64,000 nt of DNA, from positions 957-64,956 of IMG/VR virus record IMGVR_UViG_3300033067_000207. One strand, given 5' to 3'. Each line of letters starts with the position of its first letter. Position 1 is the first letter of the stretch. The notes under the pieces were generated by a model. It saw nothing but the letters and a program-made list of their open reading frames with translations. It made no database searches and was not told the origin of the DNA. Shown here piece after piece: positions 39,081 through 63,985 of the stretch. Made by a program: the position numbers and the translations under genes. This stretch comes from a virus. Its lineage: Duplodnaviria; Caudoviricetes.

Positions 39081-39314
39081 CTAACTGTCAATGCCCGGAA
39101 ACGGAACGTGTGGTGGCAAAATGTCGTGTTGCGCGTTAAAAATTTTGAAGGCGTCTAGCTCGTCTTTCGCTGTGTAGTGTGTTCTAAGTATGCTTGGATG
39201 CGGGTACTGAGCAAAGCTTACTTCGTATAGGTTATATCCATTTCTGTCATAGACAATTATACACCGCGCCCTAACAAACCTAAAGACTCTATACCCTGTT
39301 ACGTCGTAGCTCAC
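39081..39314 (-). CDS. Small DEL-motif protein
   Basis: YTAKDELDAFKIF. Confidence 0.65.
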   Translation of the reverse strand: MSYDVTGYRVFRFVRARCIIVYDRNGYNLYEVSFAQYPHPSILRTHYTAKDELDAFKIFNAQHDILPPHVPFPGIDS

Positions 39315-39481
39315 TCTGAACCCTTATATCTCGGTTTTCTACAGGCGGGGCCGTACAAAATCTCTTTGATGCTGCCCACATAGTAATTATATAGGTGCTC
39401 TGACGGGCCGCTTTCTTCCTCTTCTTTGCGTTTCGATGCGCCGCCGCGAATGACTTTACCGGTTTTAGGGTCTAGTTTCAT
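39311..39481 (-). CDS. 56-aa hypothetical protein (not in the ORF track)
   Basis: MKLDPKTGKV...; overlaps both neighbours by 4 nt. Confidence 0.5.
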   Translation of the reverse strand: MKLDPKTGKVIRGGASKRKEEEESGPSEHLYNYYVGSIKEILYGPACRKPRYKGSE

Positions 39482-41034
39482 TTTCCAAGCTCCTGCCTGT
39501 AAAGCTCCACCAGTTTGCCGTGCGTGTCAATATTGTTTTTAAGCATGTCGTAAAGCCTCCGCTCCACTTCGCTACCAACGATATGGACAATGTTCATGTT
39601 ATTTTTCTGTCCGGGCCGGTCAATTCTCGCGTTTAACTGCAAGTAGACCTCCACACTCGTGACTGGAGCGTACCATATAGTGGTGTCTGCTGCGGTCAAT
39701 GTCAAGCCGTGCGAAGCGGCGGCGGGTTGTATAATTAGTACTTTAGTGTCACCGCCATTCTGGAACCGACTAACAATATCAGTTCGTTTGTTGACGTTCA
39801 CAGCACCATTGATAATCTCGGATTTTATTCCTGCCTTGTCGAGTGCTGCCTTAAGTAAATTAATAGTATGTGTAAAAGGTACGGCGACAATAACTTTATT
39901 AGACGACTCTTCGATGGCCTCAAGCACGACGTTAAGGCGGTTACTAACGTCAAACTCTACAGTAGCTCCAGTATCCGTATAGACCGCACCCCCTGAAATC
40001 TGGAGGAGTTTGTTTAGGTTCGCAGCCGCATTCACAGAAGTAATCTGCTCGCCAGCCGCGTTGGTAATCATCTTTTGTTTCAAGTCTTTGTAGTACTTGG
40101 TCTGCATCGCCGTAAGCGGCGCTTCGCGCTCTGTATGAAGCACGGGCGGCAAATCCAAACACTGTCGCTTCTCAAACCTCACCGCAGGCTTAAGCATCTT
40201 GTGGATAATGTCGGTGGCCCCTTCGCGCGGAACCCACTTATACTGGGTGACGCGGTACATGATCTTATCCCTAAACTGCGAGAAAGACCGTGGCGAGTTC
40301 TGGGGATTAACCAGCTTAGCCAAGCCGTAGGCGTCAAGAGGGGACTGCGCTGCCGGTGTGCCGGTCAGCATCCAGAGGTAAGGGATTTTATCGGAGAGTT
40401 CCTTGAAAACTTTCCAGCGGTTAGTGCTAACTGTCTTATATGCAGTAGCTTCGTCTACAACAACCAAATCAAAGTTTCCTGCGGCTAGAGTATCCTTAAC
40501 GATTTCTACACCGTCGTAATTAATAATTACGTACTCGGAACCTTCTTCGATGATTTTCTTGCGTTGCTTGGCGTCACCATGCGCAACAGATACACTACGG
40601 TGCATAGCGAAGCGGAACAAATCTTGCTGCCATGCCGACTTCATAATGGACAACGGGCACAGCACTAGGACCCGCTTAACGAGTCCCAAATTCATAAGAT
40701 AATCAGCGGCCCAGATTACGCTCGCCGTTTTGCCCGTACCGGCTTCTGAGAAGCAGAACGCTTTCTTTCGAATAGATAAAAAACTGGAACTTTCTCTTTG
40801 GTGTTTGAAGGGGGTAAATCTTCCGGACCATTGGTAGTCTCGTAAAATTGGCGACGGCACATTTGCTTCTGGCTCCAAACTTACTAGCGCTTGTGCGTTA
40901 GCAAATGTCCACTTTACCAGAACTTCACCTTCTCCTACAAGGGCGCTAGTTTGTATCGTAGACAAAATTTTATCTGGGTCATCAGTTTTTACTAATAACC
41001 CCTTGTTTTCAATAATTTCAATAGATGTAATCAC
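39478..41034 (-). CDS. SNF2-family (SF2) helicase
   Basis: SEAGTGKT, VVVDEAT, LTGTP, QLNARIDRPGQ; probable GTG start at 41034. Confidence 0.9.
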   Translation of the reverse strand: MITSIEIIENKGLLVKTDDPDKILSTIQTSALVGEGEVLVKWTFANAQALVSLEPEANVPSPILRDYQWSGRFTPFKHQRESSSFLSIRKKAFCFSEAGTGKTASVIWAADYLMNLGLVKRVLVLCPLSIMKSAWQQDLFRFAMHRSVSVAHGDAKQRKKIIEEGSEYVIINYDGVEIVKDTLAAGNFDLVVVDEATAYKTVSTNRWKVFKELSDKIPYLWMLTGTPAAQSPLDAYGLAKLVNPQNSPRSFSQFRDKIMYRVTQYKWVPREGATDIIHKMLKPAVRFEKRQCLDLPPVLHTEREAPLTAMQTKYYKDLKQKMITNAAGEQITSVNAAANLNKLLQISGGAVYTDTGATVEFDVSNRLNVVLEAIEESSNKVIVAVPFTHTINLLKAALDKAGIKSEIINGAVNVNKRTDIVSRFQNGGDTKVLIIQPAAASHGLTLTAADTTIWYAPVTSVEVYLQLNARIDRPGQKNNMNIVHIVGSEVERRLYDMLKNNIDTHGKLVELYRQELGK

Positions 41035-41492
41035 GTTTTTACCCGCTTGAAAAACAGTGGTTTGATCGCGTCTTCGGGCGACCAGCCTAAATCTAGTCTG
41101 CGCCGTACTACCCTTAGGCTTATGTTGTGTGCGGCGGCCCACGAGGCGGTTGTGTCTGTTCGCCCATTAATCGTAAGGTAGGTAGTCGCCCGCGTGTTGT
41201 TCATTTGCTGGGCTTTACTAGCCCATCGGCAATTACTAGGCTCGTAGCCTCTACTGTTGTCTATACGGTCTAGTGAATAACCATCCGGGCAGCGTCCCAT
41301 ATCCAACAGAAAATTATCAAATTTTAACCATCTTTCACATATAGTGATACCCCTCCCGCCGTAATACGCATAATTTTCGTTGGTAGTGTTTAGACATCGC
41401 GCTTTAGCGGCTCGCCAAGAATTATATTCTCGGCTACATTTTTTACCATTTACTACACCAGCGTGACCGTGTTTTAGCGCGTTTAAGCTCAT
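41031..41492 (-). CDS. HNH-type homing endonuclease
   Basis: YYGGRGITICERW..FDNFLLDMG...SLDRIDNSRGYEPSNCRWA. Confidence 0.85.
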   Translation of the reverse strand: MSLNALKHGHAGVVNGKKCSREYNSWRAAKARCLNTTNENYAYYGGRGITICERWLKFDNFLLDMGRCPDGYSLDRIDNSRGYEPSNCRWASKAQQMNNTRATTYLTINGRTDTTASWAAAHNISLRVVRRRLDLGWSPEDAIKPLFFKRVKT

Positions 41493-41788
41493 TATTTCTT
41501 TTTCCGCTCGCGCTTGGAAGTTTCGCTCACAAGATTGTGCTTGCTGTCGCGCTTGAAACTTCTATTAGCACCCGCGTCTTGTACGAAGGTGCCTTTGTTG
41601 TTGCCCGGGGCCTTATCCAGAGCCTCACGGTGGGCTAGGTCCTTACCGTCACCCTTGGTCACCTTACCCGCACGCATGGCCTCACGGCGCGCCTTATTGC
41701 GCGCTACACGGTTCGCCACTTGCTGCGGATCAGACTCATACTGCGCGGCCCTGTCGTATTTACGGTCTTTTGGGTTTTTGTACGGCAT
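41492..41788 (-). CDS. Basic hypothetical protein, possibly degenerate HNH
   Basis: RVARNKARR...GDGKDLAH...NRSF. Confidence 0.55.
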   Translation of the reverse strand: MPYKNPKDRKYDRAAQYESDPQQVANRVARNKARREAMRAGKVTKGDGKDLAHREALDKAPGNNKGTFVQDAGANRSFKRDSKHNLVSETSKRERKKK

Positions 41789-41939
41789 CGTAATACTCCA
41801 CTAAAAACTTATATGAGCGCCGGACGTGGTCTAGCTGTTGTGCGTCTACAGAACCTTTTACGCCGCCCTTAAGATACCTAAGCCAAGCGTCAAGGAATAT
41901 ATCATCTGGTTCCGCTGGTATAGATACCTTTTTCTTCAT
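41760..41939 (-). CDS. 59-aa hypothetical protein (not in the ORF track)
   Basis: MKKKVSIPAEPDDIFLDAWLRYL...; ATGA overlap with the upstream gene. Confidence 0.45.
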   Translation of the reverse strand: MKKKVSIPAEPDDIFLDAWLRYLKGGVKGSVDAQQLDHVRRSYKFLVEYYDAVQKPKRP

Positions 41940-42139
41940 CGCCCGCCAACCCCGTGCTGCTGTAGCGCCAGAGCTATTTCACTTTGGATATAGCTTTTTA
42001 GGTAAGCACGAAAGTGTGTATCAAACTGAGAATTACACGCCCCGTTCAAAGCGGCGCAAATATTATTCATAATCAAATTGTGTACATCTTCATGCAGCTT
42101 CACCATAGCGGCGGCTGCGTCTTTTTCGTCTTCGGTCAT
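41936..42139 (-). CDS. Small protein, MTEDEKD paralog B
   Basis: First 17 aa identical to the adjacent ORF. Confidence 0.7.
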   Translation of the reverse strand: MTEDEKDAAAAMVKLHEDVHNLIMNNICAALNGACNSQFDTHFRAYLKSYIQSEIALALQQHGVGGR

Positions 42140-42408
42140 TTATATCTCCGCAAGTAATACCTATCGTTGCTTTCTTGGATTATTTTTTGCGCCGCCGACT
42201 CAACTTCATGCCGCACACACGCAACTATTTCATCTCGGATAGAGTTTATAAAACTGCGGTATATAGTATGTTGGTTTTGGTGAATAATGTGATCCATAGG
42301 CCCGTACGGGTCGGCCAAAAAATTAAACACAATATCCTTAACTAGGGCCTCAACGTTTTCATGCAGCTTCACCATAGCCGCTGCGGCGTCTTTCTCGTCT
42401 TCTGTCAT
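42136..42408 (-). CDS. Small protein, MTEDEKD paralog A
   Basis: Starts MTEDEKDAAAAMVKLHE. Confidence 0.7.
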   Translation of the reverse strand: MTEDEKDAAAAMVKLHENVEALVKDIVFNFLADPYGPMDHIIHQNQHTIYRSFINSIRDEIVACVRHEVESAAQKIIQESNDRYYLRRYK

Positions 42409-43034
42409 TGGTAACTTTTCCTTTTTCTGGGGCTGTATTTTCTTTTTCTTTCTTTTCTAGAACCATCAGTATTGAATGTTCTAGATGTACCGTTAGCCAT
42501 TGCGTACAACACAATACTACGATTGGCTTGTTGTTTGTTCTTAGGCACCCACCTGCAATTGTCTTTAAAATATCCTAAATCATTGTTTATGCGATCTATA
42601 GATCCGTTTGGCATAGGGCACTCGCCCATGTCCGCAAGGAAGGATTCGAAACTTTCTTTCCATGCCGCACAAACCGTAATTCCGCGCCCGCCGTAACGCT
42701 TGTAAGCCGGGTGTTTTTCATAGTAGCATCGCTTTTTCATGGCGATCCACACAGAAAATTCAAACGTGTTTGTCCGACCATGAGTTATATTAGCTTGCCC
42801 GCGCGTGGCGAACGCCGTACACCCGCAATCTTTTTGCGCCCCGCTAGTAAATTGCCATGCACGCATGGAGCGTGAAACACCACACGAGCAATTAACAATC
42901 CAGTATCTCGGTCGATCTAGGTCACGCGACTCAACTATCAACGAATTAAATTTTTGTCCGGTTAAATCTTTCGGTGGTCTCGGCACTATCGACTCCTTAG
43001 CCCGTTGTGTGGGCACGACAAAACCGGACACCAT
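42405..43034 (-). CDS. HNH-type homing endonuclease
   Basis: CSCG..., YGGRGITVCAAW..SFESFLADMGE...SIDRINNDLGYFKDNCRW. Confidence 0.85.
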   Translation of the reverse strand: MVSGFVVPTQRAKESIVPRPPKDLTGQKFNSLIVESRDLDRPRYWIVNCSCGVSRSMRAWQFTSGAQKDCGCTAFATRGQANITHGRTNTFEFSVWIAMKKRCYYEKHPAYKRYGGRGITVCAAWKESFESFLADMGECPMPNGSIDRINNDLGYFKDNCRWVPKNKQQANRSIVLYAMANGTSRTFNTDGSRKERKRKYSPRKRKSYQ

Positions 43035-49163: not shown

Positions 49164-49451
49164 CTATTCTTTTTTGGCATCTTTGCGTATCCAGATTTTT
49201 ACCGTGTTGTCGCTCTTATCATGCCAGCGCTTTTCAAATGTTACATACGCGGCCATCTCGTCTTCAGCTTCAACATGCGTGATCGCGGCTAGGTGCGACA
49301 GGCTTGAGTTATATGGTTCTACCTTAAGAATACTTGGGGTTTTTGAACCTTCATACCAAGCCCAGTGCACAGTATAGACTGGTTTTCCCGTAACATTGTT
49401 AATAAACCCCGGTATAAGTTCATTTAACATTTGTCTCTTACTAACGGCCAT
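49164..49451 (-). CDS. Small DEL-motif protein
   Basis: VEAEDEMAAYVTF; RBS AGGAG. Confidence 0.7.
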   Translation of the reverse strand: MAVSKRQMLNELIPGFINNVTGKPVYTVHWAWYEGSKTPSILKVEPYNSSLSHLAAITHVEAEDEMAAYVTFEKRWHDKSDNTVKIWIRKDAKKE

Positions 49452-49824
49452 TATACTCCTCCGCGTATTTATCCAGTATCTCGACGGCTCGCGCCATAGC
49501 GGCCATTTCATCTTGTGCGATGATAGGCACACTAAATTCGCCGTCACTGTAAATTAAGTTAAGCGCTTCTCCCTGCTTCATGTGTACTACTTCTTTTATT
49601 TTGTACCTAAACTTCATGTCATCGAAAGCCACATAGTACACAACGCTAACCTTATATGTAGCGGGCCACTCAGGACCTTTATGGTTTTTAGCTTCCCGCT
49701 CGTATAAAGCGTTAAACATAGCATGGAGTGTGTTTTGTTTGTAGTTAGCCACGGGCTCTCCTAGAAGCATCCCATTATTTGCTACTGCATTATTAGTCAG
49801 TCGGAAAGGGCTTGGTGAACCCAT
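49441..49824 (-). CDS. Small DEL-motif protein
   Basis: IIAQDEMAAMARA; RBS GGAG. Confidence 0.7.
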   Translation of the reverse strand: MGSPSPFRLTNNAVANNGMLLGEPVANYKQNTLHAMFNALYEREAKNHKGPEWPATYKVSVVYYVAFDDMKFRYKIKEVVHMKQGEALNLIYSDGEFSVPIIAQDEMAAMARAVEILDKYAEEYNGR

Positions 49825-50038
49825 CTAAAAACTCCCTGAAGTCTTCTGTCTTTTTCTTGACTATATCCAGTGCGGTTTTATATGCATCTAACTCGTCTAT
49901 ACCACTAACAGTGATGTGATTAAACACATACTCTCCCGAGCGATATTTTTCTTTATTGTATGGCTCTACGCTCTCCACTCTATAGGAGCCGTCTAGCTCT
50001 ATAAAATATTTTACGGAATACCGCCCGGGAACTATCAT
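49793..50038 (-). CDS. Small DEL-motif protein
   Basis: VSGIDELDAYKTA; start uncertain. Confidence 0.65.
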   Translation of the reverse strand: MIVPGRYSVKYFIELDGSYRVESVEPYNKEKYRSGEYVFNHITVSGIDELDAYKTALDIVKKKTEDFREFLDGFTKPFPTD

Positions 50039-50042
50039 TGGC

Positions 50043-50510
50043 TTAGGAGATGTGGTCTTTCGCATAAGAGCTTGGAGCGTTTCCCCCCGGAGAGATTGCA
50101 TTATGAATGTTGCCGGTAGAACCTAGAGCGATCCCAGTATTAATAAATGCTCCCGCCGGTTTCAAACCTTGTTTAGCATACCTATCAAACTGCTCTCGTT
50201 CGCCGCTCAGCACGACACGACGAACAATTTCTTTCTCGACACCAGCTTCATATACTTCCATCAACCGCGCATATAAAGCGTCAACTTCTTTGTCAGTAAA
50301 CGTCGGCAGGGGGGTACCGCAGATACTAGCGTCAAGAGAGGGGTCTGTCCAGTTTGGCTGTCCGGTTTTTCTGATGGTTACTGCGTTTGCTACATCCCGC
50401 CAAGGCGACGAGTAATTGTCCCCTGCAATACCCATATAAAATTCGTCCGGGTGGCTGTGCATCCGGCCAAGCAAAATTTCTACAGCCTTACAAAAACCGT
50501 TGTCAGTCAT
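50043..50510 (-). CDS. Hypothetical protein
   Basis: 155 aa; N-terminus (LLGRMHSHPDEF) resembles ORF 46476 (LIDRMEEHPGEF). Confidence 0.6.
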   Translation of the reverse strand: MTDNGFCKAVEILLGRMHSHPDEFYMGIAGDNYSSPWRDVANAVTIRKTGQPNWTDPSLDASICGTPLPTFTDKEVDALYARLMEVYEAGVEKEIVRRVVLSGEREQFDRYAKQGLKPAGAFINTGIALGSTGNIHNAISPGGNAPSSYAKDHIS

Positions 50511-53740: not shown

Positions 53741-54969
53741 TACTCAACCTCAACCTTGATCGTCTTACCGTTAGGCGACACAACGTCCGTGGTAATGCAC
53801 CACAACACAGGTGCGGGCCACTCGCTGCCCCAATCACCCACATACCCGTCCGTAAATTGCAGGATAGCTTGCGGGACAATCTTCTTCTCGTTAAGCAAAC
53901 GCATGAGACACGCGCCGTCCGTGCCGCCGCCGCCCTTAGGTTTAGTGTTGGCTACTAAGCTATCCATATCGGAAACTTCGTAGACTTCTTCAGACGCTAC
54001 AGAATGGTCCCAGTAATAGAGGCGGATGCGCTCGGGGCGAACAGCTTCACACACAGCCTTGACCTCAGATAGAAACGCATTGAGTTCCCGGTTACTGATG
54101 GAACCAGAAGTATCCACGCCAACAATAATCTCCCCTACACGCTCACCGATAAGAGTAGGCAAATAGATATCATTGCCGACGAACCTGCGGTTGACGCGAC
54201 GCCAAGAGGACGCGTCTTTAGCTGCACACGTAGTAGTTACAAACTCTCTTAGGAGTTCTTTCCAGTCATGTTTGGGCTCCAAGAGATCGCCGAGTTCCCG
54301 CGACATGCCTCCCGCGCCTGTTCCATTGAGTCGTTGGTGGGCGATCTGCCCTGTACGAAGAGCCGTGTCGATTTCACGTTCGATCTCTTTCTGTTCCGCT
54401 TCCGTGAGTTCTTGCGCGCCTTCCCAGTCATGCTCATCGAAGCCCTTAAGGTTAGAGCCAAAGCCGCCAGAAGAATTACCGTCGCCGTCACCCTTCTTCC
54501 CCTTACCGGACTGTTGCTGCATCTCTTTCTTGAGCGCATCAAACACTTGCTTGGTGTTCATACCACGATATTTCTCGTCAACCAAGCCGATCTTCTCGCC
54601 GTTAAGCGTGGGAAACTCGATGACGTGTCCTTCCGGGTCCATATCTTTGAGTTCTAAGTTAATCACAAAGTCAGCGGCGGCGTTGGTGAGCATGGGGTTT
54701 TCTTCGAACAGCCGACGCCAGATGAACAAATGCCGATAAGCCTTGTGCAAGTTCTCGTGGAGGACAACAAACGCGAGCTGTTTATCGTTTAGCTTAGCAA
54801 TGAAGTCTTCGCCGTAAAACTCGTCGCGTCCGTTGGTGGCGGCAGTGGGGATATCTTTGGAAACATATGTTTTGCCAACCATAAGGATACCAGACCACAA
54901 CGCAAACTTGGGGTTGCGCATCAGGGAAATCTTGGCGCGGGTCAAACGCTTCTCAGGAGTAATGCTCAT
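53740..54969 (-). CDS. Putative metallopeptidase + VWA-like protein (DUF2201 type)
   Basis: PTAATNG, LHENLH (HExxH), MIDAS VDTSGS, GGGGTD, FTDGY. Confidence 0.85.
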   Translation of the reverse strand: MSITPEKRLTRAKISLMRNPKFALWSGILMVGKTYVSKDIPTAATNGRDEFYGEDFIAKLNDKQLAFVVLHENLHKAYRHLFIWRRLFEENPMLTNAAADFVINLELKDMDPEGHVIEFPTLNGEKIGLVDEKYRGMNTKQVFDALKKEMQQQSGKGKKGDGDGNSSGGFGSNLKGFDEHDWEGAQELTEAEQKEIEREIDTALRTGQIAHQRLNGTGAGGMSRELGDLLEPKHDWKELLREFVTTTCAAKDASSWRRVNRRFVGNDIYLPTLIGERVGEIIVGVDTSGSISNRELNAFLSEVKAVCEAVRPERIRLYYWDHSVASEEVYEVSDMDSLVANTKPKGGGGTDGACLMRLLNEKKIVPQAILQFTDGYVGDWGSEWPAPVLWCITTDVVSPNGKTIKVEVE

Positions 54970-55385
54970 TTGCGTACCTTTCTGACTTGTTTGAACAGGG
55001 TGGAATACCCTTTGGATGTAACATTGTTACACTTAACTGTTAGGGTCTTCTGTTTGGCGTCGCGTAACTTATATAGGTCGTGCTTAAGCTTAGGTATATT
55101 CTCTTTGCCACAGTACATAATCATGGCGTTTTTAAGCGCATCTAATTCGTCGATGGCATAGAGTTGTTTATTCACAAACCCCTCTTCTGAAAACGGCTCA
55201 CATGTATTCGGGTCAATAATCCAGTATGCATACCGAACGCGCAGCGTGACTAAAAAACATTTGTTGGGGGTGGGTCTCGGGAAACGAGGTTGCGTTAATT
55301 TTATGATGCCGCCAGAAACTTCACCAACCTTAAACACTGACACGTCTGGGGGATATTCTTTTTCTAACTCCTCTAGTGTTTTCAT
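54966..55385 (-). CDS. DEL-motif protein
   Basis: LYAIDELDALKNA. Confidence 0.65.
   Translation of the reverse strand: MKTLEELEKEYPPDVSVFKVGEVSGGIIKLTQPRFPRPTPNKCFLVTLRVRYAYWIIDPNTCEPFSEEGFVNKQLYAIDELDALKNAMIMYCGKENIPKLKHDLYKLRDAKQKTLTVKCNNVTSKGYSTLFKQVRKVRK
55017..55031. promoter_or_regulatory. Palindrome copy 3 (intragenic, about 50 bp upstream of the VWA gene)
   Basis: TGTAACATTGTTACA. Confidence 0.7.
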
Positions 55386-55484: not shown

Positions 55485-55739
55485 CTAACGTCTGGTTGTC
55501 TTATTCGCTCGCTTTCGTTCACGGTCCTCCTCCTCCTCCTCCTCCTCGGTTATCTCTTTCAGCGCTTTGTTGTACGCCTCCATCTCATCTACGGCTTCGT
55601 AGAAGTTCTCATAATATCTGTCAGAGTCTCCAAGCCTGATGCGTACTCTGTACCAATCATGATTAACTTTGTTTGAAAAGTTAAGCCCGGGGCGAGCAAT
55701 CTTGCCCCATAGTCCTACATAGACGATCCGTCTACCCAT
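55485..55739 (-). CDS. Small DEL-motif protein with poly-Glu tract
   Basis: YEAVDEMEAYNKA...EEEEEED. Confidence 0.65.
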   Translation of the reverse strand: MGRRIVYVGLWGKIARPGLNFSNKVNHDWYRVRIRLGDSDRYYENFYEAVDEMEAYNKALKEITEEEEEEEDRERKRANKTTRR

Positions 55740-57118: not shown

Positions 57119-57147
57119 ACTATATACTATAGTTATCCCTAAGTCAA
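57119..57147 (-). promoter_or_regulatory. Sigma70-type promoter upstream of the AAA/VWA operon
   Basis: TTGACT-N17-TATAGT on the - strand. Confidence 0.7.
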
Positions 57148-57468
57148 GGGCTTCTGGGTAGACGGTCGAATGAGGCCCAGTATCTCTTGAGCTTCAGTAA
57201 AAGAAAGTTCCTTTTCAGAGGCGGCTGTAAAAAACTTGACCACCTTGGAAACCGCGTCCAGCTCATCTATTGCGCGCGTGCGAATTTCGCTTACCCCGTA
57301 TACCCTATCTCTGTTTTTATTCATTGCGGGTACGGAACAGAACGAACCTTCTCTATGGTAAAATTTTGCTTTAATGTAGCGTGGCCGCGAACCCCACTTA
57401 TAGTGGATAAAATAAACGTTATAGTCTGGGTCATACCAGACGCCTTTAATTTCCCATTTCATCTTCAA
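57139..57468 (-). CDS. Small DEL-motif protein
   Basis: TRAIDELDAVSKV. Confidence 0.7.
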   Translation of the reverse strand: MKMKWEIKGVWYDPDYNVYFIHYKWGSRPRYIKAKFYHREGSFCSVPAMNKNRDRVYGVSEIRTRAIDELDAVSKVVKFFTAASEKELSFTEAQEILGLIRPSTQKPLT

Positions 57469-57610: not shown

Positions 57611-57980
57611 TGTGTGCTCCCTTGTGTTTGTTAATGAAGTCCACCATGCCTTGTGCGTCGGTATCCCAGTCTAGGTTTCTGCTAACCTCTTTAAGCGCCT
57701 CCTCGTCGTTCATAATCTGCTCAAGATAATTCTCGCCGAAGGCTTTTAATTTAATATTGTATTCCTCCGGGTCTTCTTTCTCGTCTTTCCAGCCAAACTC
57801 ACTTTCAAACGCATCGCACCCAGAGCATGAACCGAACGACCCCCGCACCCAACCAGAGCGATCCGGCAGCACAACCAACGCCAACCAGTCACCTTGATAG
57901 GAACCAAACTCTTTGAATAGCAATACCTTAGCCCCCGCAGCTTCTAGGGCCTTGGCGTAATTATGCTCATATTCAATCAT
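57603..57980 (-). CDS. Hypothetical protein
   Basis: GSYQGDWLAL...GSFGSCSGCDAFE. Confidence 0.7.
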   Translation of the reverse strand: MIEYEHNYAKALEAAGAKVLLFKEFGSYQGDWLALVVLPDRSGWVRGSFGSCSGCDAFESEFGWKDEKEDPEEYNIKLKAFGENYLEQIMNDEEALKEVSRNLDWDTDAQGMVDFINKHKGAHSD

Positions 57981-58222
57981 GCGTAATAAACCTCCTTGTT
58001 TTTCCAGCTTTCTATAAACCTGCTCATAGCCTGCAATTCATCCGGGCAGTTCTTCAGGTGGTGCGAATGATAATCCCTCCCCCCATATGGTAAAACATCG
58101 TCCCTATCTTCTGGCGCTCTCCAGCCGTCTAAATAAGGATACCCAGCGACACGGTAATGGACCGCGAAACCGTCAAACCAACGCTGAAAACCTAAAATCT
58201 CTACGTTCTCAATCGGGGTCAT
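57977..58222 (-). CDS. Small DEL-motif protein
   Basis: KNCPDELQAMSRF; RBS GAGG. Confidence 0.7.
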   Translation of the reverse strand: MTPIENVEILGFQRWFDGFAVHYRVAGYPYLDGWRAPEDRDDVLPYGGRDYHSHHLKNCPDELQAMSRFIESWKNKEVYYA

Positions 58223-58488
58223 TTTTTCCTCGGATAGTTTGCTAGTAGATGTTCTATAACGAGGTGGTCTACCTCTCGGCGCGACCATTTTAAGTAGGCT
58301 TCAAGTTCGTCTTGTGCGTGTACTTTTTCTGAGTGATAGTCCGCCCCGAACTCTTTGGCATAAATGGGTTCAGGGCTATAGCCGTACGGTTCGTACCTAA
58401 AACAAACTTCGAACATCCCGGGAACAGAAGCTAGTATCCCAAGAAACTCCACTTCTTTATGGGGATCAATCGGGGTTGACAACTTCAA
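58219..58488 (-). CDS. Small DEL-motif protein
   Basis: VHAQDELEAYLKW. Confidence 0.7.
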   Translation of the reverse strand: MKLSTPIDPHKEVEFLGILASVPGMFEVCFRYEPYGYSPEPIYAKEFGADYHSEKVHAQDELEAYLKWSRREVDHLVIEHLLANYPRKK

Positions 58489-58690
58489 TCTCCATGCCTT
58501 CCATCAGCTTACGGAATTTCACCATCACGTCAAGCTCATCTTGTCCGTGCATAGGTAGGGTACGCGGCGTGTTTTCCTCAGAGAGCTTACAATGAACCAT
58601 AAACAAATGCCGAACACCTTCCATCCCTAGTTCATATAACCCATCATCCTCTATCCGTAACAATGTTACACTCAATTTTTTCTTTTTCAT
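58466..58690 (-). CDS. Small DEL-motif protein
   Basis: MHGQDELDVMVKF. Confidence 0.65.
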   Translation of the reverse strand: MKKKKLSVTLLRIEDDGLYELGMEGVRHLFMVHCKLSEENTPRTLPMHGQDELDVMVKFRKLMEGMEIEVVNPD

Positions 58691-58922
58691 TGCGCGCCAT
58701 CCTGTATGCTTCGACTTCGCACGCCGCTGTAACTTCGAACGTTTTTTCCTCTGAGAAATTTTCGTCGTCATAGGTTATTTTTATCCTAACAACATACTTG
58801 TTTGTGCGCGCACCGGTCTGAGAAAAGTATTCATTTTTCCCGAGCTGCCTTCGCCGCACACCTCCGCCTTTGTTCAGGCTTTTGAACTTGTTGTTTATGT
58901 TTAGTATCTCAACCGTAACCAT
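58644..58922 (-). CDS. Small protein, DEL-motif variant
   Basis: FEVTAACEVEAYRMA; RBS GGAGG. Confidence 0.65.
   Translation of the reverse strand: MVTVEILNINNKFKSLNKGGGVRRRQLGKNEYFSQTGARTNKYVVRIKITYDDENFSEEKTFEVTAACEVEAYRMARNEKEKIECNIVTDRG
58657..58669. promoter_or_regulatory. Palindrome copy 7 (in a gene overlap)
   Basis: GTAACAATGTTAC. Confidence 0.65.
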
Positions 58923-59241
58923 TTCTTTGCCTCCATTCTAAGTTAGTTTGTGCTTTCAGTTCTTCCCACTTTTTATCTCGTGCTACTTTTAGCGCCCACT
59001 CTCTTTCAAAGAAACTGATTACGGCAAGCTCGTCTTGTAGCAGCTCGCCTCTATAGAAGTTACTTATTTGGAATGTAGCGTATCCACTACTAAAATAATA
59101 CCCATCCGAATTTCTTACTCTGTATCCTCCGGCGTGTTTGTACAGTTTTTCAAACCAACCCACATAACCCCAGTTCACTTCTATACGCCACATATCTCCG
59201 TATACAGGAACAACACTCTTAATCACCCCAGCATTCGCCAT
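58909..59241 (-). CDS. Small DEL-motif protein
   Basis: ELLQDELAVISFF. Confidence 0.7.
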   Translation of the reverse strand: MANAGVIKSVVPVYGDMWRIEVNWGYVGWFEKLYKHAGGYRVRNSDGYYFSSGYATFQISNFYRGELLQDELAVISFFEREWALKVARDKKWEELKAQTNLEWRQRNGYG

Positions 59242-59416: not shown

Positions 59417-59426
59417 CGTCAGTCTC

Positions 59427-59579
59427 CTATGTTTTACGGCATTTGTAGCAGGCGATAATTACTTTCCCTCTTCGTCTTACGTGCGACCCACTCGGAAGGT
59501 TTTCTCCGCAGCTACATTTACCTGAATACTTCAGTACATACGGATATGATCCAGAACCATACGCAAACAGATTACTCAT
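59427..59579 (-). CDS. Small Cys-containing (zinc-ribbon-like) protein
   Basis: KCSCG...ACYKC. Confidence 0.5.
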   Translation of the reverse strand: MSNLFAYGSGSYPYVLKYSGKCSCGENLPSGSHVRRRGKVIIACYKCRKT

Positions 59580-59868
59580 CTGCAAACTGGAAGGCCGATA
59601 ATGTTGGGTCTTCATTTAGTTTCTCCTCATAAAGTTTAAGGAACTCCATAGCTTTAATAAAAATTCCAAGTTCATCGGTTTCTGCCCTTACCACTACTGC
59701 TATATTGGTGTCGCGCAAAACACAAAAACCATCCGGGCCGAGCATGATCTGTTCCCACCTTCTAATTAAACTCCTAACCGACCCTCGATCACCTACAGCA
59801 CTACCAAGCTCCGCATAGCCCCAATTATACGCGTCTGGTGGGACTACCCGTTTAATCTTGTGCGGCAT
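59572..59868 (-). CDS. Small DEL-motif protein
   Basis: RAETDELGIFIKA. Confidence 0.7.
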   Translation of the reverse strand: MPHKIKRVVPPDAYNWGYAELGSAVGDRGSVRSLIRRWEQIMLGPDGFCVLRDTNIAVVVRAETDELGIFIKAMEFLKLYEEKLNEDPTLSAFQFADE

Positions 59869-60160
59869 TGTACGCCTCCAATAATTTTAGCGTGGGCAGC
59901 AAAGCCGATAACTCGTCCGGGTATACGGCAGCAGAAAAAGGTTTATTGACGCCGTATAGCTGAAAATATAATTTAATCTTTGCGGACAGCGGGCCTATGC
60001 GGTGAAAAAACGCAACCGGTTGGTACTCTAAAGACTGTTCGTCCAGCAGTTTTCGCAACTCGTCGCATATAATACTCGCTTCGCGCCCGGTTGTTGTTGG
60101 TTTTAGCACCGCCACGATTTGACTTCCGTCCTGTATTATACGGTCTAGTTCTAGTTTCAT
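59852..60160 (-). CDS. Small DEL-motif protein (PDEL subtype)
   Basis: AVYPDELSALLPT. Confidence 0.7.
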   Translation of the reverse strand: MKLELDRIIQDGSQIVAVLKPTTTGREASIICDELRKLLDEQSLEYQPVAFFHRIGPLSAKIKLYFQLYGVNKPFSAAVYPDELSALLPTLKLLEAYNAAQD

Positions 60161-60384
60161 AGTACATGCCCCGCATTAGCTAAGAAATCCATAACTCTTT
60201 TCATTGCGTCAAGCTCGTCAAGCGCCATAAAGTTTGGTCTAAACAGCCATGCGCCGTGCCACGTAAATATTTTTCTAAGTGCGGTGGCTTCTTCTTTGTT
60301 CTCAGCCTGTATCCAAACTGTATACCACGCCATTTTTCTATTTATGCCCGCGTGCGCCAGCCATTCAATCTTGATTATTCGCAT
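60157..60384 (-). CDS. Small DEL-motif protein
   Basis: FMALDELDAMKRV. Confidence 0.7.
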   Translation of the reverse strand: MRIIKIEWLAHAGINRKMAWYTVWIQAENKEEATALRKIFTWHGAWLFRPNFMALDELDAMKRVMDFLANAGHVL

Positions 60385-60625
60385 TCCATTCCTCAAGTAT
60401 GGGTTGCAGGTGCGCGAAAACCGAAAGCTCGTCTGGAAACTTATCTACATCAAAGTTAATTCTTTGGGTTCGAACACCGTAAGTGTCGGCGTCCGACATT
60501 CTGCATAACTGGTTCAAAGTGCTCCTGTCGCGGTCGTCATTACCAGACAACCCGGAAATATAGGCGTGGAAATCAAAGTGAAACGAATTAACACCGCGCT
60601 CAATCCGTTCTATTTCTAGTTTCAT
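60365..60625 (-). CDS. Small DEL-motif protein (PDEL subtype)
   Basis: DKFPDELSVFAHL. Confidence 0.7.
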   Translation of the reverse strand: MKLEIERIERGVNSFHFDFHAYISGLSGNDDRDRSTLNQLCRMSDADTYGVRTQRINFDVDKFPDELSVFAHLQPILEEWNANNQD

Positions 60626-61029
60626 GCGATCTTGTATCCTCTTGCGTTTAACCACCGGACAGCCTGTGCGTACGCATCTAGCTCATCAACGGCTTCTTTT
60701 ATTTCTATGTGGGGGTGCCTTAATATATTATACCCACCGCTCGTAGCTGGGTCAGCCACAACATAGAAATTCCCGGTATAAAACCCCCTCCAAGGGTTAG
60801 GAATAGAAAATATATGTAGCTTTACTTTCGCTATATACTCGTCTCTCGCGTATCCCTTTACTACCTCAATGATATGTACCTTATTTGGAAAAGTGTATTT
60901 CTTAAGTAAGTATAAAGGCCCAAGGGCATAAAGCAAAAATAATACACAGCCAAAGACAACAGAAAAACATAAAAGCGCGCCAACAGGACCAAACGCCTGT
61001 ACCACCACTTTAAAGGTTACCCATATCAT
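60622..61029 (-). CDS. DEL-motif protein with N-terminal TM segment
   Basis: Hydrophobic N-terminus; KEAVDELDAYAQA. Confidence 0.7.
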   Translation of the reverse strand: MIWVTFKVVVQAFGPVGALLCFSVVFGCVLFLLYALGPLYLLKKYTFPNKVHIIEVVKGYARDEYIAKVKLHIFSIPNPWRGFYTGNFYVVADPATSGGYNILRHPHIEIKEAVDELDAYAQAVRWLNARGYKIA

Positions 61030-61035
61030 TCTGCA

Positions 61036-61344
61036 TTACACCTTTATATCTACCAGAGTACCCAATACTTTCTGCGCTGCGTTGTACACAGTCGTGAAGG
61101 CCGCAAGCTCATCTCTGGCGCTGACCTCAAACCGCTTCCTGCGCTGGCATTTAACGATGCGAATATCTTCGTGAACTATTGCCGTCACTATCCTGTGCCG
61201 CCGATCTACCCACGCTGCTCTTTGGGCGTGGTCCGGGCAGTGCCCGTCTGGGTAGCACACCGCGTATTCGTCTTCCCACGTGATCCATACGAAATACATG
61301 GTGGCGTCGTTACGAAACCTTTGGACTCTTCTTAGACTTAACAT
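61036..61344 (-). CDS. Small DEL-motif protein
   Basis: VSARDELAAFTTV. Confidence 0.7.
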   Translation of the reverse strand: MLSLRRVQRFRNDATMYFVWITWEDEYAVCYPDGHCPDHAQRAAWVDRRHRIVTAIVHEDIRIVKCQRRKRFEVSARDELAAFTTVYNAAQKVLGTLVDIKV

Positions 61345-61627
61345 CTTTTTGTTCCTCGTAATTTTTTATGGTTTGGAGTGCGGCGGAGAAAACAGTTAGC
61401 TCATCTGGGAAAGGCTTGATGAACCTACCTATTCTCCCTAAACAAAGTCGAAACTCGTTATCGGCTGTAGGTGAAGCATCTATATAAAACTCGTAGCCTG
61501 CCGGGGTTATCATCAAATCGCGCCAGTAATATAGCTCTTTAATATCGGCGGGCATCAGCACATCAAACATAGCGTAAATTTCTTCACCGTAACCAGATAT
61601 TGGGTTTTCTTCCAGCAGGCGTAACAC
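61310..61627 (-). CDS. Small DEL-motif protein (PDEL subtype)
   Basis: KPFPDELTVFSAA. Confidence 0.7.
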   Translation of the reverse strand: MLRLLEENPISGYGEEIYAMFDVLMPADIKELYYWRDLMITPAGYEFYIDASPTADNEFRLCLGRIGRFIKPFPDELTVFSAALQTIKNYEEQKDVKSKKSPKVS

Positions 61628-61633
61628 TGTTAC
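61621..61633. promoter_or_regulatory. Palindrome copy 8 (covers a GTG start codon)
   Basis: GTAACACTGTTAC. Confidence 0.7.
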
Positions 61634-61645
61634 TCCACCTCCATT

Positions 61646-61888
61646 TTATATATCCTCCAGTATCTTCATCACGTAGGTCATTACTGCAAGCTCGTCTGCG
61701 TGGAACATAGCGAGGTGCGTATGGGATATAGAAACAAAATATGGGTCTACGTTTCTGTGTTTCTCCTGTAGTTTTTCCACGTCCTCCCACGCTAGTATCC
61801 CATCGAACCGCACCAAATACAAGTTATACCCACTAGTAGATGTCAACGTGCCGCTGGGACACGTTATTTTACGTATCTTCACCATCAC
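61646..61888 (-). CDS. Small DEL-motif protein
   Basis: MFHADELAVMTYV. Confidence 0.7.
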   Translation of the reverse strand: MMVKIRKITCPSGTLTSTSGYNLYLVRFDGILAWEDVEKLQEKHRNVDPYFVSISHTHLAMFHADELAVMTYVMKILEDI

Positions 61889-62160
61889 CGGCTCCGTAAC
61901 AGCACGCGCTCTTCGATCAGATGTTGCAGTTCGTTATAAATTTGCTCAACCAAGAGGACGCGCTTGCCCTTAAACTTATCCAGAGCTTCGGCGTATGATA
62001 GTTCCGCTTGCCTCTCATCCCTGCCGCGTGAGTATTCCACATTCTTGTACCCATCCCACACGCCCACCAGATAGACTTTATAGGTTTTCATTTCCGGCTT
62101 TTGTTTGTTCATTTGATTTCTCCTCAACGCTAGGTGTTCCATTTTTACTGTTATATCCAT
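61885..62160 (-). CDS. Hypothetical protein without the DEL motif
   Basis: ORF in the operon; true start may be internal. Confidence 0.55.
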   Translation of the reverse strand: MDITVKMEHLALRRNQMNKQKPEMKTYKVYLVGVWDGYKNVEYSRGRDERQAELSYAEALDKFKGKRVLLVEQIYNELQHLIEERVLLRSR

Positions 62161-62210
62161 GAGGCCACCTCTTGTTTATTTCATCCAGTATGGGTTGCGC
62201 CAGCACGTAT

Positions 62211-62573
62211 TCATTCTATACCTCCGTTTGGTTGCACAGGAACACTGTCGCCACAGCTAGCAGGCGCAGCAGGTATAATACCATTTGTAATTTCCTCCCA
62301 GTTACCCAGTATGCGTTGTGCTAGCACAAAGGCTGCAAGCTCGTCGGGGATAGAGTCCGCCCTGAAACAGATCATATCAGGAAACAGCAGCACGGGGAGT
62401 ATATTGTGTTTACGCACGTAGCTCTCCAGCCCTAAGAAGCTAGTAGCTTTGTTCGTTATGCTTTCTGTGAGGGCGGCGGATAAGCTAGGCTCAAGAAGCC
62501 TGCTGTCTAGTCTCACATCAATCCATTTCTCGTTAAATGGGTCGATATTCACTTTCTCTATGTTTGGTTTCAT
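62211..62573 (-). CDS. Small DEL-motif protein (PDEL subtype)
   Basis: DSIPDELAAFVLA. Confidence 0.7.
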   Translation of the reverse strand: MKPNIEKVNIDPFNEKWIDVRLDSRLLEPSLSAALTESITNKATSFLGLESYVRKHNILPVLLFPDMICFRADSIPDELAAFVLAQRILGNWEEITNGIIPAAPASCGDSVPVQPNGGIE

Positions 62574-62823
62574 CCACGTGCCTTTCTATGTATCCTATAG
62601 CTATGCTAAGCGCTTTCAGCTCGTCCACTGTTGCAATCTGGAATGTACATCTTCCGGGGCTGAAGAACTCGTCATGCGGTTTTAGTTCCCGCCAGTCTGT
62701 ATCGGCTACATTTTCTGGAAACTTCTCATAGAAGGTTCTTTCTTTTCCTTTAAGGGCGACAACTATGTTGTATACCCACCGCCCCTCATCGCCGCCGATA
62801 TTTTCTATATTAATTATCTCCAT
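62533..62823 (-). CDS. Small DEL-motif protein
   Basis: IATVDELKALSIA. Confidence 0.7.
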   Translation of the reverse strand: MEIINIENIGGDEGRWVYNIVVALKGKERTFYEKFPENVADTDWRELKPHDEFFSPGRCTFQIATVDELKALSIAIGYIERHVDETKHRESEYRPI

Positions 62824-63082
62824 AGTCTTCTTCCTCTGTGTCCAGCATCCAGAAATCATCGGACAAAACCCGAGCGGAAGAAATAAACTCCACCACCTTA
62901 CCCTTTTCTGTGAACCAGAAAGTATCCCCGAAGACTGGGGAGATAACTATGTTGTAGTATGAGTTGGTTTTATTCCGGCGTAACAGTGTTACAGCTAATT
63001 TCTTAGCTCTTGTCTCGCCTTTGATGTGGGCTTGTAAGTATTTTGTTGGGGATAGTTGGATTGAGAGTTTATAGAGTTTCAT
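62810..63082 (-). CDS. Hypothetical protein without the DEL motif
   Basis: 90 aa, overlapping its neighbours. Confidence 0.6.
   Translation of the reverse strand: MKLYKLSIQLSPTKYLQAHIKGETRAKKLAVTLLRRNKTNSYYNIVISPVFGDTFWFTEKGKVVEFISSARVLSDDFWMLDTEEEDYGDN
62980..62992. promoter_or_regulatory. Palindrome copy 9 (intragenic)
   Basis: GTAACAGTGTTAC. Confidence 0.65.
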
Positions 63083-63299
63083 TTGTTTGCTCCTGTGCCA
63101 CTATGAAAATTTTTAACGCATCCAGCTCATCTTTGGCGTTGTATATCCTTACGGCGTAGGGGCCGTATGTTGTAGAGTATCCTTTCTTTGCGATGGCGTA
63201 ACAAATTTTAGAGCTGTTTTTTATTTTCCCTCCGTCTTCGCGCCGCACACAGTATGAAATGCCGTCCCATACTACCCTAAGCGCCTCCATTTTTTGCAC
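63069..63299 (-). CDS. Small DEL-motif protein
   Basis: YNAKDELDALKIF. Confidence 0.7.
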   Translation of the reverse strand: MQKMEALRVVWDGISYCVRREDGGKIKNSSKICYAIAKKGYSTTYGPYAVRIYNAKDELDALKIFIVAQEQTNETL

Positions 63300-63594
63300 C
63301 TGATGTTATGTACTCGCATACAACCAAGGCTTTCTTAAACGCATCCAGCTCATCCTCGCCTGATACACACAGCACGGGTTCACCACATATATTGTATTCG
63401 TTTTCCGCCCCGTACGCCTCCGTGTAGTATGCGTTTGATCCGCACACACCGTCACCAAGTTTATACCACGGATAATATCCTGTAGGCACCTCTGCGGTTT
63501 TTTTCAGAAACCGCGTTTCTTTTTTTGTCGCCTTGGTGACTACAACCATAAATGACCGTCCGGCCCTGCGTGTACTAACTCTCTTTGGTAACAT
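63277..63594 (-). CDS. Small DEL-motif protein
   Basis: VSGEDELDAFKKA. Confidence 0.7.
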   Translation of the reverse strand: MLPKRVSTRRAGRSFMVVVTKATKKETRFLKKTAEVPTGYYPWYKLGDGVCGSNAYYTEAYGAENEYNICGEPVLCVSGEDELDAFKKALVVCEYITSGAKNGGA

Positions 63595-63631
63595 TTAACA
63601 TACTCTCTATTAGTGGCCTTACTTTTTAGGC

Positions 63632-63644
63632 GTAACATTGTTAC
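63632..63644. promoter_or_regulatory. Palindrome copy 10 (intergenic)
   Basis: GTAACATTGTTAC. Confidence 0.75.
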
Positions 63645-63700
63645 ACTGTTGATAAATCTTCCCTTGAACGCACCGCACCTTATTATTTGTTTTGTTTTGT

Positions 63701-63985
63701 TTATTCCGCCCTGTATTCTTTGTAGTAGGCTTTGAAGTCCTCAGTCTCCATAACTTCTATAGCTATTTTCATAGCATCCAGCTCATCCTTTGCTTCCCAC
63801 ACCTCAATAAACAGCGTGCCCTTAGGGATTTCAAATATGTTGGCATAGCCTTCGGCCCAATCTAGTTTTATACCGGGCATACGTCGTAAGCGTTTCGCCG
63901 GAGAGCTGTTGCTTATTTTGGCGTTTATAAACGCGATGTATAGGTTGTCATCGCTATAGACTCTAACCACTTTTGTTATTTGCAC
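63701..63985 (-). CDS. Small DEL-motif protein
   Basis: WEAKDELDAMKIA; RBS GGAGG. Confidence 0.7.
   Translation of the reverse strand: MQITKVVRVYSDDNLYIAFINAKISNSSPAKRLRRMPGIKLDWAEGYANIFEIPKGTLFIEVWEAKDELDAMKIAIEVMETEDFKAYYKEYRAE

What the first reader, a model, noticed from the sequence alone, without database searches (positions are those of the whole stretch)
39081..63985. Family of about 25 small hypervariable proteins united by a DE[LM]x[AV]-hydrophobic motif (candidate undescribed system)
Seen: 24 ORFs, most about 75-140 aa, carry DE[LM] followed by an amphipathic helix, usually in the last 15-40 residues and after a beta-strand-like segment. The motifs are AKDELDAF, AEDEMAAY, AQDEMAAM, GIDELDAY, AIDELDAL, AVDEMEAY, AIDELDAV, CPDELQAM, AQDELEAY, GQDELDVM, LQDELAVI, ETDELGIF, YPDELSAL, ALDELDAM, FPDELSVF, AVDELDAY, ARDELAAF, FPDELTVF, HADELAVM, IPDELAAF, TVDELKAL, AKDELDAL, GEDELDAF and AKDELDAM, plus the variant ACEVEAY. 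The rest of each sequence is barely alignable by eye. Nineteen lie in a nearly contiguous, translationally coupled array at 57.1-64 kb that may continue past the window. The motif is absent from the virion arm. Inferred: a constant docking element on variable recognition bodies, that is, an adaptor or effector library that binds one common partner (the phage MoxR/VWA machine, a protease or host RNA polymerase) while targeting diverse host proteins such as defence systems. An alternative is one small, fast-evolving fold that was massively duplicated.
Basis: partly seen in the sequence, partly recalled or inferred. Interest (0 to 1): 0.9.

Follow-up and report, generated by a model that had tools for sequence, protein, structure and literature searches.

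The report
Expanded small early-protein family in phage
A 65-kb uncultivated phage gives about a quarter of its genes (25 genes, 11% of its DNA) to diverged copies of one tiny, undescribed protein domain whose hallmark is a D-E-L motif. The motif looks like part of the fold rather than a bolt-on docking tag, and the function is untested.

Summary
The stricter pattern DE[LM]-x-[AVI]-hydrophobic occurs in 23 of 41 small genes of that arm, against 0.13 expected from residue shuffles.

The motif is not a tag on unrelated bodies. For about 18-20 members it is the start of the only conserved helix of a ~55-aa strand-strand-(variable insert)-strand-helix domain (AlphaFold pLDDT 90.6). Five to seven "P-DEL" or weak members share only the helix and an N-terminal strand pattern.

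The domain matches no Pfam or PHROGs family, no PDB sequence and no clear known fold. Every family-bearing contig whose context I checked belongs to one uncultivated phage group with an N4 gp24/gp25-like AAA-VWA module.

Of 114 relatives' loci, 85 carry 0 copies, 19 carry 1 and 8 carry 2. One other lineage carries 13.

Sister-phage fragments show purifying selection (dN/dS mostly 0.17-0.38) but much higher divergence than neighbouring genes, that is, mosaic turnover. The array stops at the contig end.

My best reading is a lineage-specific expansion of an accessory, probably host-directed, small-binder family. Docking to a common partner (the VWA MIDAS site) is neither supported nor excluded. 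The scan has seen comparable early paralog arrays in other phages, mostly jumbo phages.

The parts
39081..39314 (-). Family member, 77 aa, AKDELDAF. Isolated copy at the distal end of the arm.
   Evidence: External profile E 1.9e-11. Sister-phage ortholog 89.6% identical, dN/dS 0.31.
49164..49547 (-). Family member, AEDEMAAY. The likely start is 49451 (95 aa).
   Evidence: (E 3.6e-8).
49441..49824 (-). Family member, 127 aa, AQDEMAAM.
   Evidence: E 8e-5. Leave-one-out E 2.4e-6.
49793..50101 (-). Family member, 102 aa, GIDELDAY.
   Evidence: E 9.8e-13.
54966..55385 (-). Family member, 139 aa, AIDELDAL. Its stop overlaps the start of the VWA/metallopeptidase gene.
   Evidence: Ortholog 89.9% identical, dN/dS 0.22.
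55485..55739 (-). Family member, 84 aa, AVDEMEAY, just downstream of the AAA gene. It has the best score to the family profile.
   Evidence: E 2.2e-14; dN/dS 0.17.
57139..57468 (-). Family member, 109 aa, AIDELDAV. Last gene of the array.
   Evidence: Ortholog 82% identical, dN/dS 0.24.
57977..58288 (-). P-DEL-type member, CPDELQAM. The likely start is 58222 (81 aa).
   Evidence: Only the helix aligns to the core family.
58219..58488 (-). Family member, 89 aa, AQDELEAY.
   Evidence: E 2.6e-10.
58466..58771 (-). Family member, GQDELDVM. The likely start is 58690 (74 aa).
   Evidence: E 2.2e-7.
58644..58922 (-). Variant member, 92 aa, with C-E-V in place of D-E-L.
   Evidence: External profile E 1.2e-4. 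Not recovered in the leave-one-out test.
58909..59241 (-). Weak member, 110 aa, LQDELAVI.
   Evidence: Leave-one-out E 0.16 and external profile E 1.5. Membership rests on the motif alone.
59572..59868 (-). Weak member, 98 aa, ETDELGIF.
   Evidence: E 0.002; E 0.13.
59852..60160 (-). P-DEL-type weak member, 102 aa, YPDELSAL.
   Evidence: (E 0.13).
60157..60396 (-). Family member, ALDELDAM. The likely start is 60384 (75 aa). This is the protein that was modelled.
   Evidence: AlphaFold pLDDT 90.6, pTM 0.77. Strands 2-11, 19-26 and 51-54; helices 30-37 and 57-70.
60365..60655 (-). P-DEL-type member, FPDELSVF. The likely start is 60625 (86 aa).
60622..61029 (-). Family member, 135 aa, AVDELDAY, with a hydrophobic (membrane-anchor-like) N-terminal extension.
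   Evidence: E 8e-11.
61036..61344 (-). Family member, 102 aa, ARDELAAF.
61310..61627 (-). P-DEL-type member, 105 aa, FPDELTVF.
61646..61888 (-). Family member, about 79 aa, HADELAVM.
62211..62573 (-). P-DEL-type member, 120 aa, IPDELAAF.
62533..62859 (-). Family member, TVDELKAL. The likely start is 62823 (96 aa).
63069..63299 (-). Family member, AKDELDAL. The likely start is 63290 (73 aa).
   Evidence: Ortholog in L001 68% identical, dN/dS 0.29.
63277..63594 (-). Family member, 105 aa, GEDELDAF.
   Evidence: Ortholog in L001 97% identical.
63701..63985 (-). Family member, 94 aa, AKDELDAM. First gene of the arm, next to the contig end.
   Evidence: Ortholog in L001 59% identical, with the differences lying upstream of the motif helix, dN/dS 0.38. 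First AlphaFold model pLDDT 64.

Best explanation
This is a lineage-specific expansion of one small, previously undescribed protein domain.

Shown:
- The domain is about 55 aa: strand 1, Gly turn, strand 2 ([YFW]-x-V), a variable insert, strand 3, an amphipathic helix, and often a short C-terminal segment that looks strand-like.
- The A-x-D-E-L-[D/A/E]-A-[Y/F/M] motif sits at the strand-3/helix junction.
- All copies are co-oriented small genes, and 19 of them are packed at the start of the minus-strand arm.

Inferred about the motif: D is the helix N-cap, and L, A, the aromatic residue and the following A and L form the face packed on the sheet. The motif is mainly the signature of the fold.

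Inferred about function: by position these are early, dispensable accessory proteins. Each uses the same scaffold with different loops, tails and charge (-7 to +9; one copy has a hydrophobic N-terminal anchor) to bind a different host or phage target. That would serve host takeover or counter-defence. The set is reshuffled by recombination among related phages.
For: - Motif enrichment: 23 of 41 small genes against 0.13 expected, with protein-level conservation and free synonymous codons.
- Shared strand pattern plus helix across window members and relatives.
- A profile built mainly from proteins of other contigs, plus a few from this phage or its sister, recovers 21 window members at E < 0.01. 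Leave-one-out recovers 20 of 25.
- Confident model (pLDDT 90.6) with the helix starting right after the D.
- Minimal relatives of 56-60 aa consist of this domain alone.
- Copy number with the same profile: 18 hits in this genome against 0, 1, 0, 0 and 1 in five complete relatives. In 114 loci the counts are 85 with 0, 19 with 1, 8 with 2, and two loci of one phage type with 13. That lineage's AAA protein is only 58% identical to this one, no closer than the low-copy relatives at 58-68%.
- Sister-phage comparison: family genes 59-97% identical with dN/dS mostly 0.17-0.38 and dS 0.15-0.9. Most neighbours are 97-100% identical with dS mostly <= 0.05 (VWA 0.22).
- Varied pI of 4.7-9.4.
- No paralog pair shows DNA similarity beyond the motif.
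Against: - No experiment or expression data exists. Early timing is inferred only from gene order next to the divergent junction.
- The strict invariance of D and E may exceed what helix capping needs, which leaves room for a functional acidic contact.
- Five to seven members (the P-DEL type plus 58909 and 59572) align to the core family only over the 20-residue helix. Common ancestry of their bodies is not shown.
- I had no model coordinates, so I could not verify which motif side chains are buried.
Confidence: 0.6

Rival explanations
1. Common-partner docking. The exposed acidic D-E(-x-D) at the helix N-terminus is a ligand for one shared partner. The most plausible partner is the metal site (MIDAS) of the phage's HExxH/VWA protein, which works with the N4 gp24-like AAA ATPase. 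The paralogs would then be adaptors or substrates that bring different targets to that machine.
For: - D and E are invariant in alignments with 10-15% mean column identity.
- The VWA protein keeps D-x-S-G-S, T and D invariant across 24 relatives, and also H-E-x-x-H.
- Family members sit between the AAA and VWA genes in this phage (two copies, one overlapping the VWA start), in L016/L017 (one) and in L086 (two).
- All family-bearing contigs examined belong to phages with this module.
Against: - In most relatives the AAA and VWA genes are directly adjacent with no family member, and the gap holds unrelated small ORFs in others.
- Three of five complete relatives and 85 of 114 loci have the module but no detectable member.
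- Co-occurrence is trivial if the family is simply restricted to this phage group.
- The rest of the motif behaves as a buried helix face.
Confidence: 0.13
2. Oligomerisation motif. The conserved helix is a dimer interface, and the paralogs form homo- or mixed dimers, as in the dimerisation domain of the RNA polymerase alpha subunit. The array would then generate combinatorial assemblies.
For: The best structural resemblance, repeated over many entries, is to the alpha-subunit N-terminal domain. Like this family, that domain carries an insert between its strands and its final helix (from my own knowledge). Z 5.1-5.3, rmsd about 3.2 A over 65 of 75 residues.
Against: Z of about 5 is below what unrelated models typically reach in this library (tool notes). 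There is no sequence similarity. The homodimer prediction could not be run.
Confidence: 0.1
3. Chance motif or non-coding ORFs.
For: None beyond the small size of the ORFs.
Against: - The shuffle control.
- dN/dS below 1 in six of seven comparable orthologs.
- About 50 small homologous cluster representatives in other contigs.
- A confident fold.
Confidence: 0.01

Closest known systems
Lineage-specific multigene families in phage early regions
   Same: Many diverged same-strand copies of one small protein of unknown function near a genome end. Copy number differs between relatives. A host-directed role is presumed.
   Different: - The protein family differs and has no sequence relation to those arrays.
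- The genome is only 65 kb, so the family makes up about 24% of genes and 11% of the DNA.
- Six copies are scattered among replication genes rather than lying in the array.
HicB-like / UPF0150 antitoxin N-terminal domain (Pfam PF15919, PF03681)
   Same: From my own knowledge, it has a similar size and order of elements (three strands, a helix, then a strand). Its helix also begins with a capped acidic turn (G-x-T-x-E-E-A).
   Different: PF15919 finds nothing in this genome at E <= 1. No member of a 60-sequence alignment hits it. It is not among the listed structural matches. There is no toxin partner gene.
RNA polymerase alpha-subunit N-terminal (RBP11-like) dimerisation domain
   Same: Best structural superposition: Z 5.1-5.3 over 65 residues.
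   Different: The score is in the range of generic two-layer alpha/beta sandwiches. There is no sequence signal and no evidence of dimerisation.
N4 gp24/gp25-like AAA + VWA module
   Same: The neighbouring AAA gene matches a gene annotated 'N4 gp24-like protein / ATPase' at about 26% identity. Its partner carries DUF2201_N and DUF2201 (VWA-like) domains.
   Different: This is a neighbour, not the family itself. The module is conserved in relatives that lack the family.

Membership tests
Phage lineage-specific multigene family (paralog expansion) | Many genes in one genome share one homologous domain | tested here: met
   18 profile hits at E <= 0.01 in the genome. 20 of 25 members recovered by leave-one-out. 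Shared strand and helix pattern.
Phage lineage-specific multigene family (paralog expansion) | Copy number differs sharply between related genomes | tested here: met
   0, 1, 0, 0 and 1 copies in five complete relatives. Counts in 114 loci: 85 with 0, 19 with 1, 8 with 2, 2 with 13.
Phage lineage-specific multigene family (paralog expansion) | Expressed early and dispensable | not testable with these tools
   Only position next to the divergent junction supports this.
HicB-like / UPF0150 | Match to the Pfam profile | tested here: not met
   PF15919 gives no match at E <= 1 in the genome while the control genomes respond. No such hit in 60 members at E <= 10.
HicB-like / UPF0150 | Shared three-dimensional fold | tested here: inconclusive
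   Not listed among the Foldseek or VIA matches. A weak or missing match does not show that the folds differ.
GIY-YIG nuclease domain | GIY and YIG hairpin, catalytic Arg, Glu and Asn; match to the profile | tested here: not met
   It appeared only at Z 3.4-3.9 for the low-confidence first model and is absent from the lists for the good model. No Pfam hit. No conserved Arg or Asn columns.
RBP11-like (RNA polymerase alpha N-terminal domain) fold | Structural superposition clearly above background | tested here: inconclusive
   Z 5.1-5.3, rmsd about 3.2 A, 65 residues aligned. This is below the tool's stated typical best Z of 7-8 for unmatched models.
MoxR/VWA adaptor or substrate | Consistent co-occurrence with the AAA-VWA module | tested here: not met
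   The module is present without the family in 3 of 5 complete genomes and in most loci.
MoxR/VWA adaptor or substrate | Physical binding to the VWA or AAA protein | not testable with these tools

The most novel reading that the evidence does not exclude
The invariant acidic D-E at the helix tip is a ligand for the intact MIDAS site of the phage's HExxH/VWA protein. The 25 paralogs would then be a library of adaptors or decoy substrates that deliver different host proteins, for example defence proteins, to an N4 gp24/gp25-like AAA-VWA-metallopeptidase remodelling or degradation machine.
Probability: 0.1. Interest if true: 0.85.

Novelty: new member of a known kind. Interest (0 to 1): 0.45.

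Why it matters
- **Scale.** Multigene families are known from jumbo phages. Here a mid-sized (65-kb) phage spends about a quarter of its genes on one tiny domain. A second, distant lineage of the same phage group has 13 copies, which argues that amplification happened more than once or was kept by selection, and that it pays.
- **A new scaffold.** The domain is a compact, confidently foldable ~55-aa unit with no family name.
- **Possible uses.** If the copies bind different host targets, they would be a natural library of small inhibitors and a source of new counter-defence or host-takeover proteins.
- **A handle on the AAA-VWA module.** If the copies instead share one partner, they would give a way into the still unexplained AAA-VWA module of N4-like and related phages.

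Tried and rejected
- **Pfam and PHROGs.** Scans of 10 window members, 10 minimal relatives and all 60 rows of A3 gave only scattered sub-threshold hits, with none recurring beyond two rows.
- **PDB sequence search.** A profile search found only filamin Ig repeats at E about 0.1, which is a generic hairpin match.
- **Fold searches.** Foldseek against PDB and BFVD found nothing at E < 0.1 for either model.
- **ESM Atlas.** It returned only viral hypothetical clusters for one member. It holds no model for a P-DEL member.
- **Close-homolog search.** The first array protein found only itself and one 1.5-kb contig.
- **Nucleotide search.** A search of the array against GenBank phages gave no match.
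- **P-DEL subgroup.** A profile-profile comparison with the core family aligned only the 20-residue helix (probability 50%).
- **DNA-level explanation.** A repeat or recombination signal behind the motif was rejected because the codons vary.
- **Promoter and terminator scan.** The scan of the array found no more sites than shuffles give.
- **Complex prediction.** I tried the VWA protein plus member 55485-55739 plus Mg.
- **Metagenome scan with the AAA protein.** It found one near-identical contig, which starts at the AAA gene and therefore carries no array.

Full report
**Where the window lies.** The window is bases 957-64956 of a single 64,956-bp virus record rated 100% complete. Genes from about 38.5 kb to the end run on the minus strand. 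The first gene of that arm (63701-63985) starts 15 nt from the contig end, and the other end of the contig opens with plus-strand ORFs, the first large one 847 aa. The array therefore does not continue beyond the window.

**Check of the observation.**
- All 24 DE[LM] octapeptides and the C-E-V variant are present on minus-strand ORFs at the stated places.
- Anchoring on the motif gives the consensus A(-2)-x-D-E-L-[D/A/E]-A-[F/Y/M]-x-x-[A/F/V]-h-x-x-[L/W/I]-E.
- In a greedy gene set, the stricter pattern DE[LM].[AVI][FYMLIV] is in 23 of 41 small genes of the minus arm. It is in 0 of 13 large genes of that arm, 2 of 40 virion-arm genes, and 1 of 363 off-frame ORFs. Within-protein shuffles give a mean of 0.13 and a maximum of 3 in 2000 trials.
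- Codons of the motif vary synonymously (GAC/GAT 12:12; five Leu codons), so the constraint is on the protein.
- No pair of copies shares DNA similarity beyond the motif. Pairwise protein similarity is marginal (best E 4e-5).

**What the motif belongs to.**
- Aligning the shorter members with relatives shows conserved elements upstream of the motif. These are an N-terminal strand (h-x-[IV]-x-x-I), a Gly turn, a second strand ([YFW]-x-V-x-[YFW]), a variable insert, and a third strand ending in [YF]-A just before D-E-L.
- AlphaFold2 on 60157-60384 with a 60-row alignment gave pLDDT 90.6 and pTM 0.77. It has strands 2-11, 19-26 and 51-54, an inserted helix 30-37, and the conserved helix 57-70. 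D56 sits immediately before that helix.
- An earlier model of 63701-63985, built from window paralogs only, showed the same hairpin / strand / helix order at pLDDT 64.
- The spacing of the conserved hydrophobic positions (+2, +4/+5, +8/+9, +12) is that of one helix face. From this I infer that D is the N-cap and that L, A, the aromatic residue, A and L pack on the sheet. I could not inspect coordinates, so burial is inferred, not shown.
- Several members, and many copies in L086, continue after the helix with a short segment that looks strand-like.

**How solid membership is.**
- Motif-anchored profile: family genes score 19-32 bits and everything else in the window scores 2 bits or less.
- Leave-one-out: 20 of 25 are recovered at E < 0.01. 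Four are borderline (58909, 59572, 59852, 60365) and the C-E-V variant is missed.
- Profile built mainly from proteins of other contigs, plus a few from this phage or its sister: 21 window members at E < 0.01, including the C-E-V variant.
- Five "P-DEL" proteins (57977, 59852, 60365, 61310, 62211), together with 59572 and 58909, align to the core family only over the 20-residue helix (hhalign probability 50%). They share the N-terminal "MK-x-E-I-E-x-I" type start.
- I treat about 18-20 genes as secure members and 5-7 as a divergent subgroup whose common origin is likely but not shown.

**Known families.**
- No Pfam or PHROGs family matches window members, minimal relatives or the 60-row alignment.
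- There is no PDB sequence relative.
- Foldseek against PDB and BFVD gave nothing below E 0.1.
- VIA-align's best match is the RNA polymerase alpha N-terminal domain at Z 5.1-5.3, which by the tool's own notes is within background.
- The HicB-like profile I suspected from memory finds nothing in the genome.
- ESM Atlas neighbours are unnamed viral clusters.

**Distribution.**
- A profile search of 1.84 billion representatives returned 60 proteins at E < 0.001. About 50 are small proteins of 56-108 aa. The rest are long repeat proteins that match only partially.
- The sources' names for them are "hypothetical protein", apart from one odd label.
- Every family-bearing contig whose context I examined has the same architecture. 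A terminase gene and its neighbours run divergently from a small-gene array, which is followed by AAA, DUF2201/VWA, DNA polymerase, methyltransferase and PD-(D/E)XK nuclease genes.
- The AAA protein has 262 relatives in IMG/VR and 510 in metagenome contigs, at 58-69% identity. The nearest cultured phages match it at only about 26% (annotated N4 gp24-like) and the DNA polymerase at about 37%.

**Copy number.**
- With the same profile, the genome has 18 hits and five complete relatives have 0, 1, 0, 0 and 1.
- Across 114 loci of at least 8 kb around the AAA gene, 85 have none, 19 have one, 8 have two, and two loci of one phage type (L086, L087) have 13 (sequences).
- That lineage's AAA protein is only 58% identical to this one, no closer than the low-copy relatives at 58-68%. 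Either amplification happened twice, or an old expansion was lost many times.
- In this phage the 25 genes cover 7.4 kb, or 11.4% of the genome and about 24% of the roughly 105 genes.

**Evolution between sister phages.** Three short contigs from two metagenomes are 91-98% identical in DNA.

| Gene class | Protein identity | dS | dN/dS |
|---|---|---|---|
| Most neighbouring genes | 97-100% | 0-0.05 (VWA 0.22) | <= 0.08 where computable |
| Family genes | 59, 68, 83, 90, 90, 94 and 97% | 0.15-0.9 (63277-63594: 0.014) | 0.17-0.38 (63277-63594: 0.91, from very few substitutions) |

- The unrelated small gene 57446-57610 is also diverged: 83% identical, dS 0.72, dN/dS 0.18.
- The genes are therefore under purifying selection, but they are mosaic patches, best explained by allele exchange with other phages.
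- One non-family array gene (57603-57980, phrog_28969) is missing from the sister contig L082, so gene content also turns over.

**Relation to the AAA-VWA module.**
- The VWA protein has invariant H-E-x-x-H and an invariant D-x-S-G-S ... T ... D set across 24 relatives.
- Two family genes lie between the AAA and VWA genes here. One lies there in L016/L017 and two in L086.
- In most relatives the two genes abut, or the gap holds unrelated small ORFs.
- I read the gap as an insertion hot spot rather than evidence of partnership.
- An acidic-ligand/MIDAS contact remains possible.

**Verdict.**
- The best-supported reading is a lineage-specific expansion of an undescribed, phage-group-restricted small domain, in which the D-E-L motif is chiefly a fold signature.
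- The varied charge (pI 4.7-9.4), inserts, tails and one hydrophobic N-terminal extension point to diversified binding surfaces. So do the position at the head of the arm and the turnover between relatives. This is the usual profile of host-directed accessory proteins.
- The function is inferred, not shown.
- The scan has already recorded comparable early paralog arrays in other phages, mostly jumbo phages. This is a new family of a known kind, notable for its share of a mid-sized genome.

Noticed in passing
window 46179-63644: The palindrome GTAACANTGTTAC occurs 10 times exactly, plus 2 copies with one mismatch. All exact copies are in the minus-strand arm and several lie in intergenic gaps: two upstream of the AAA gene, one before 63277-63594, one before 55485-55739. 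Shuffles predict 0.12. It is a candidate operator or promoter element.
   Followed up: partly
window 38583-39032, 41031-41492, 42405-43034, 44012-44617: A second paralog family of four proteins, 36-46% identical. They share Y-G-G-R-G-I and D-R-I-x-N-x-x-G-Y-x-x-x-N-C-R-W blocks and are interspersed among replication genes. There is no Pfam hit. From memory the blocks look like those of a homing-endonuclease-type DNA-binding or nuclease protein; I did not test this.
   Followed up: partly
window 57603-57980: An acidic 125-aa array gene (phrog_28969, unknown function) is precisely absent from the sister-phage contig L082. That contig joins window 57977 to 57609.
   Followed up: partly
window 53740-54969 and 55814-56887: The DUF2201_N/DUF2201 protein has invariant H-E-x-x-H and a complete D-x-S-G-S/T/D MIDAS-type set. 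Its AAA partner matches a gene annotated 'N4 gp24-like protein / ATPase' at about 26% identity. The pair is conserved in hundreds of uncultivated relatives.
   Followed up: partly
window 43723-44178: A GcrA-family protein (Pfam PF07750, E 6e-16), which hints at an alphaproteobacterial host.
   Followed up: no
window 61885-62160: A 91-aa array gene without the D-E-L motif has a similar hairpin pattern and an A-E-L-S-Y-A-E-A-L segment. It may be a degenerate family member, but the profile E is only 0.41.
   Followed up: no
L086 7208-10736 and 13202-13736: A distant relative from another metagenome carries its own run of at least 13 family members, many ending in a short segment after the helix that looks strand-like.
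   Followed up: partly
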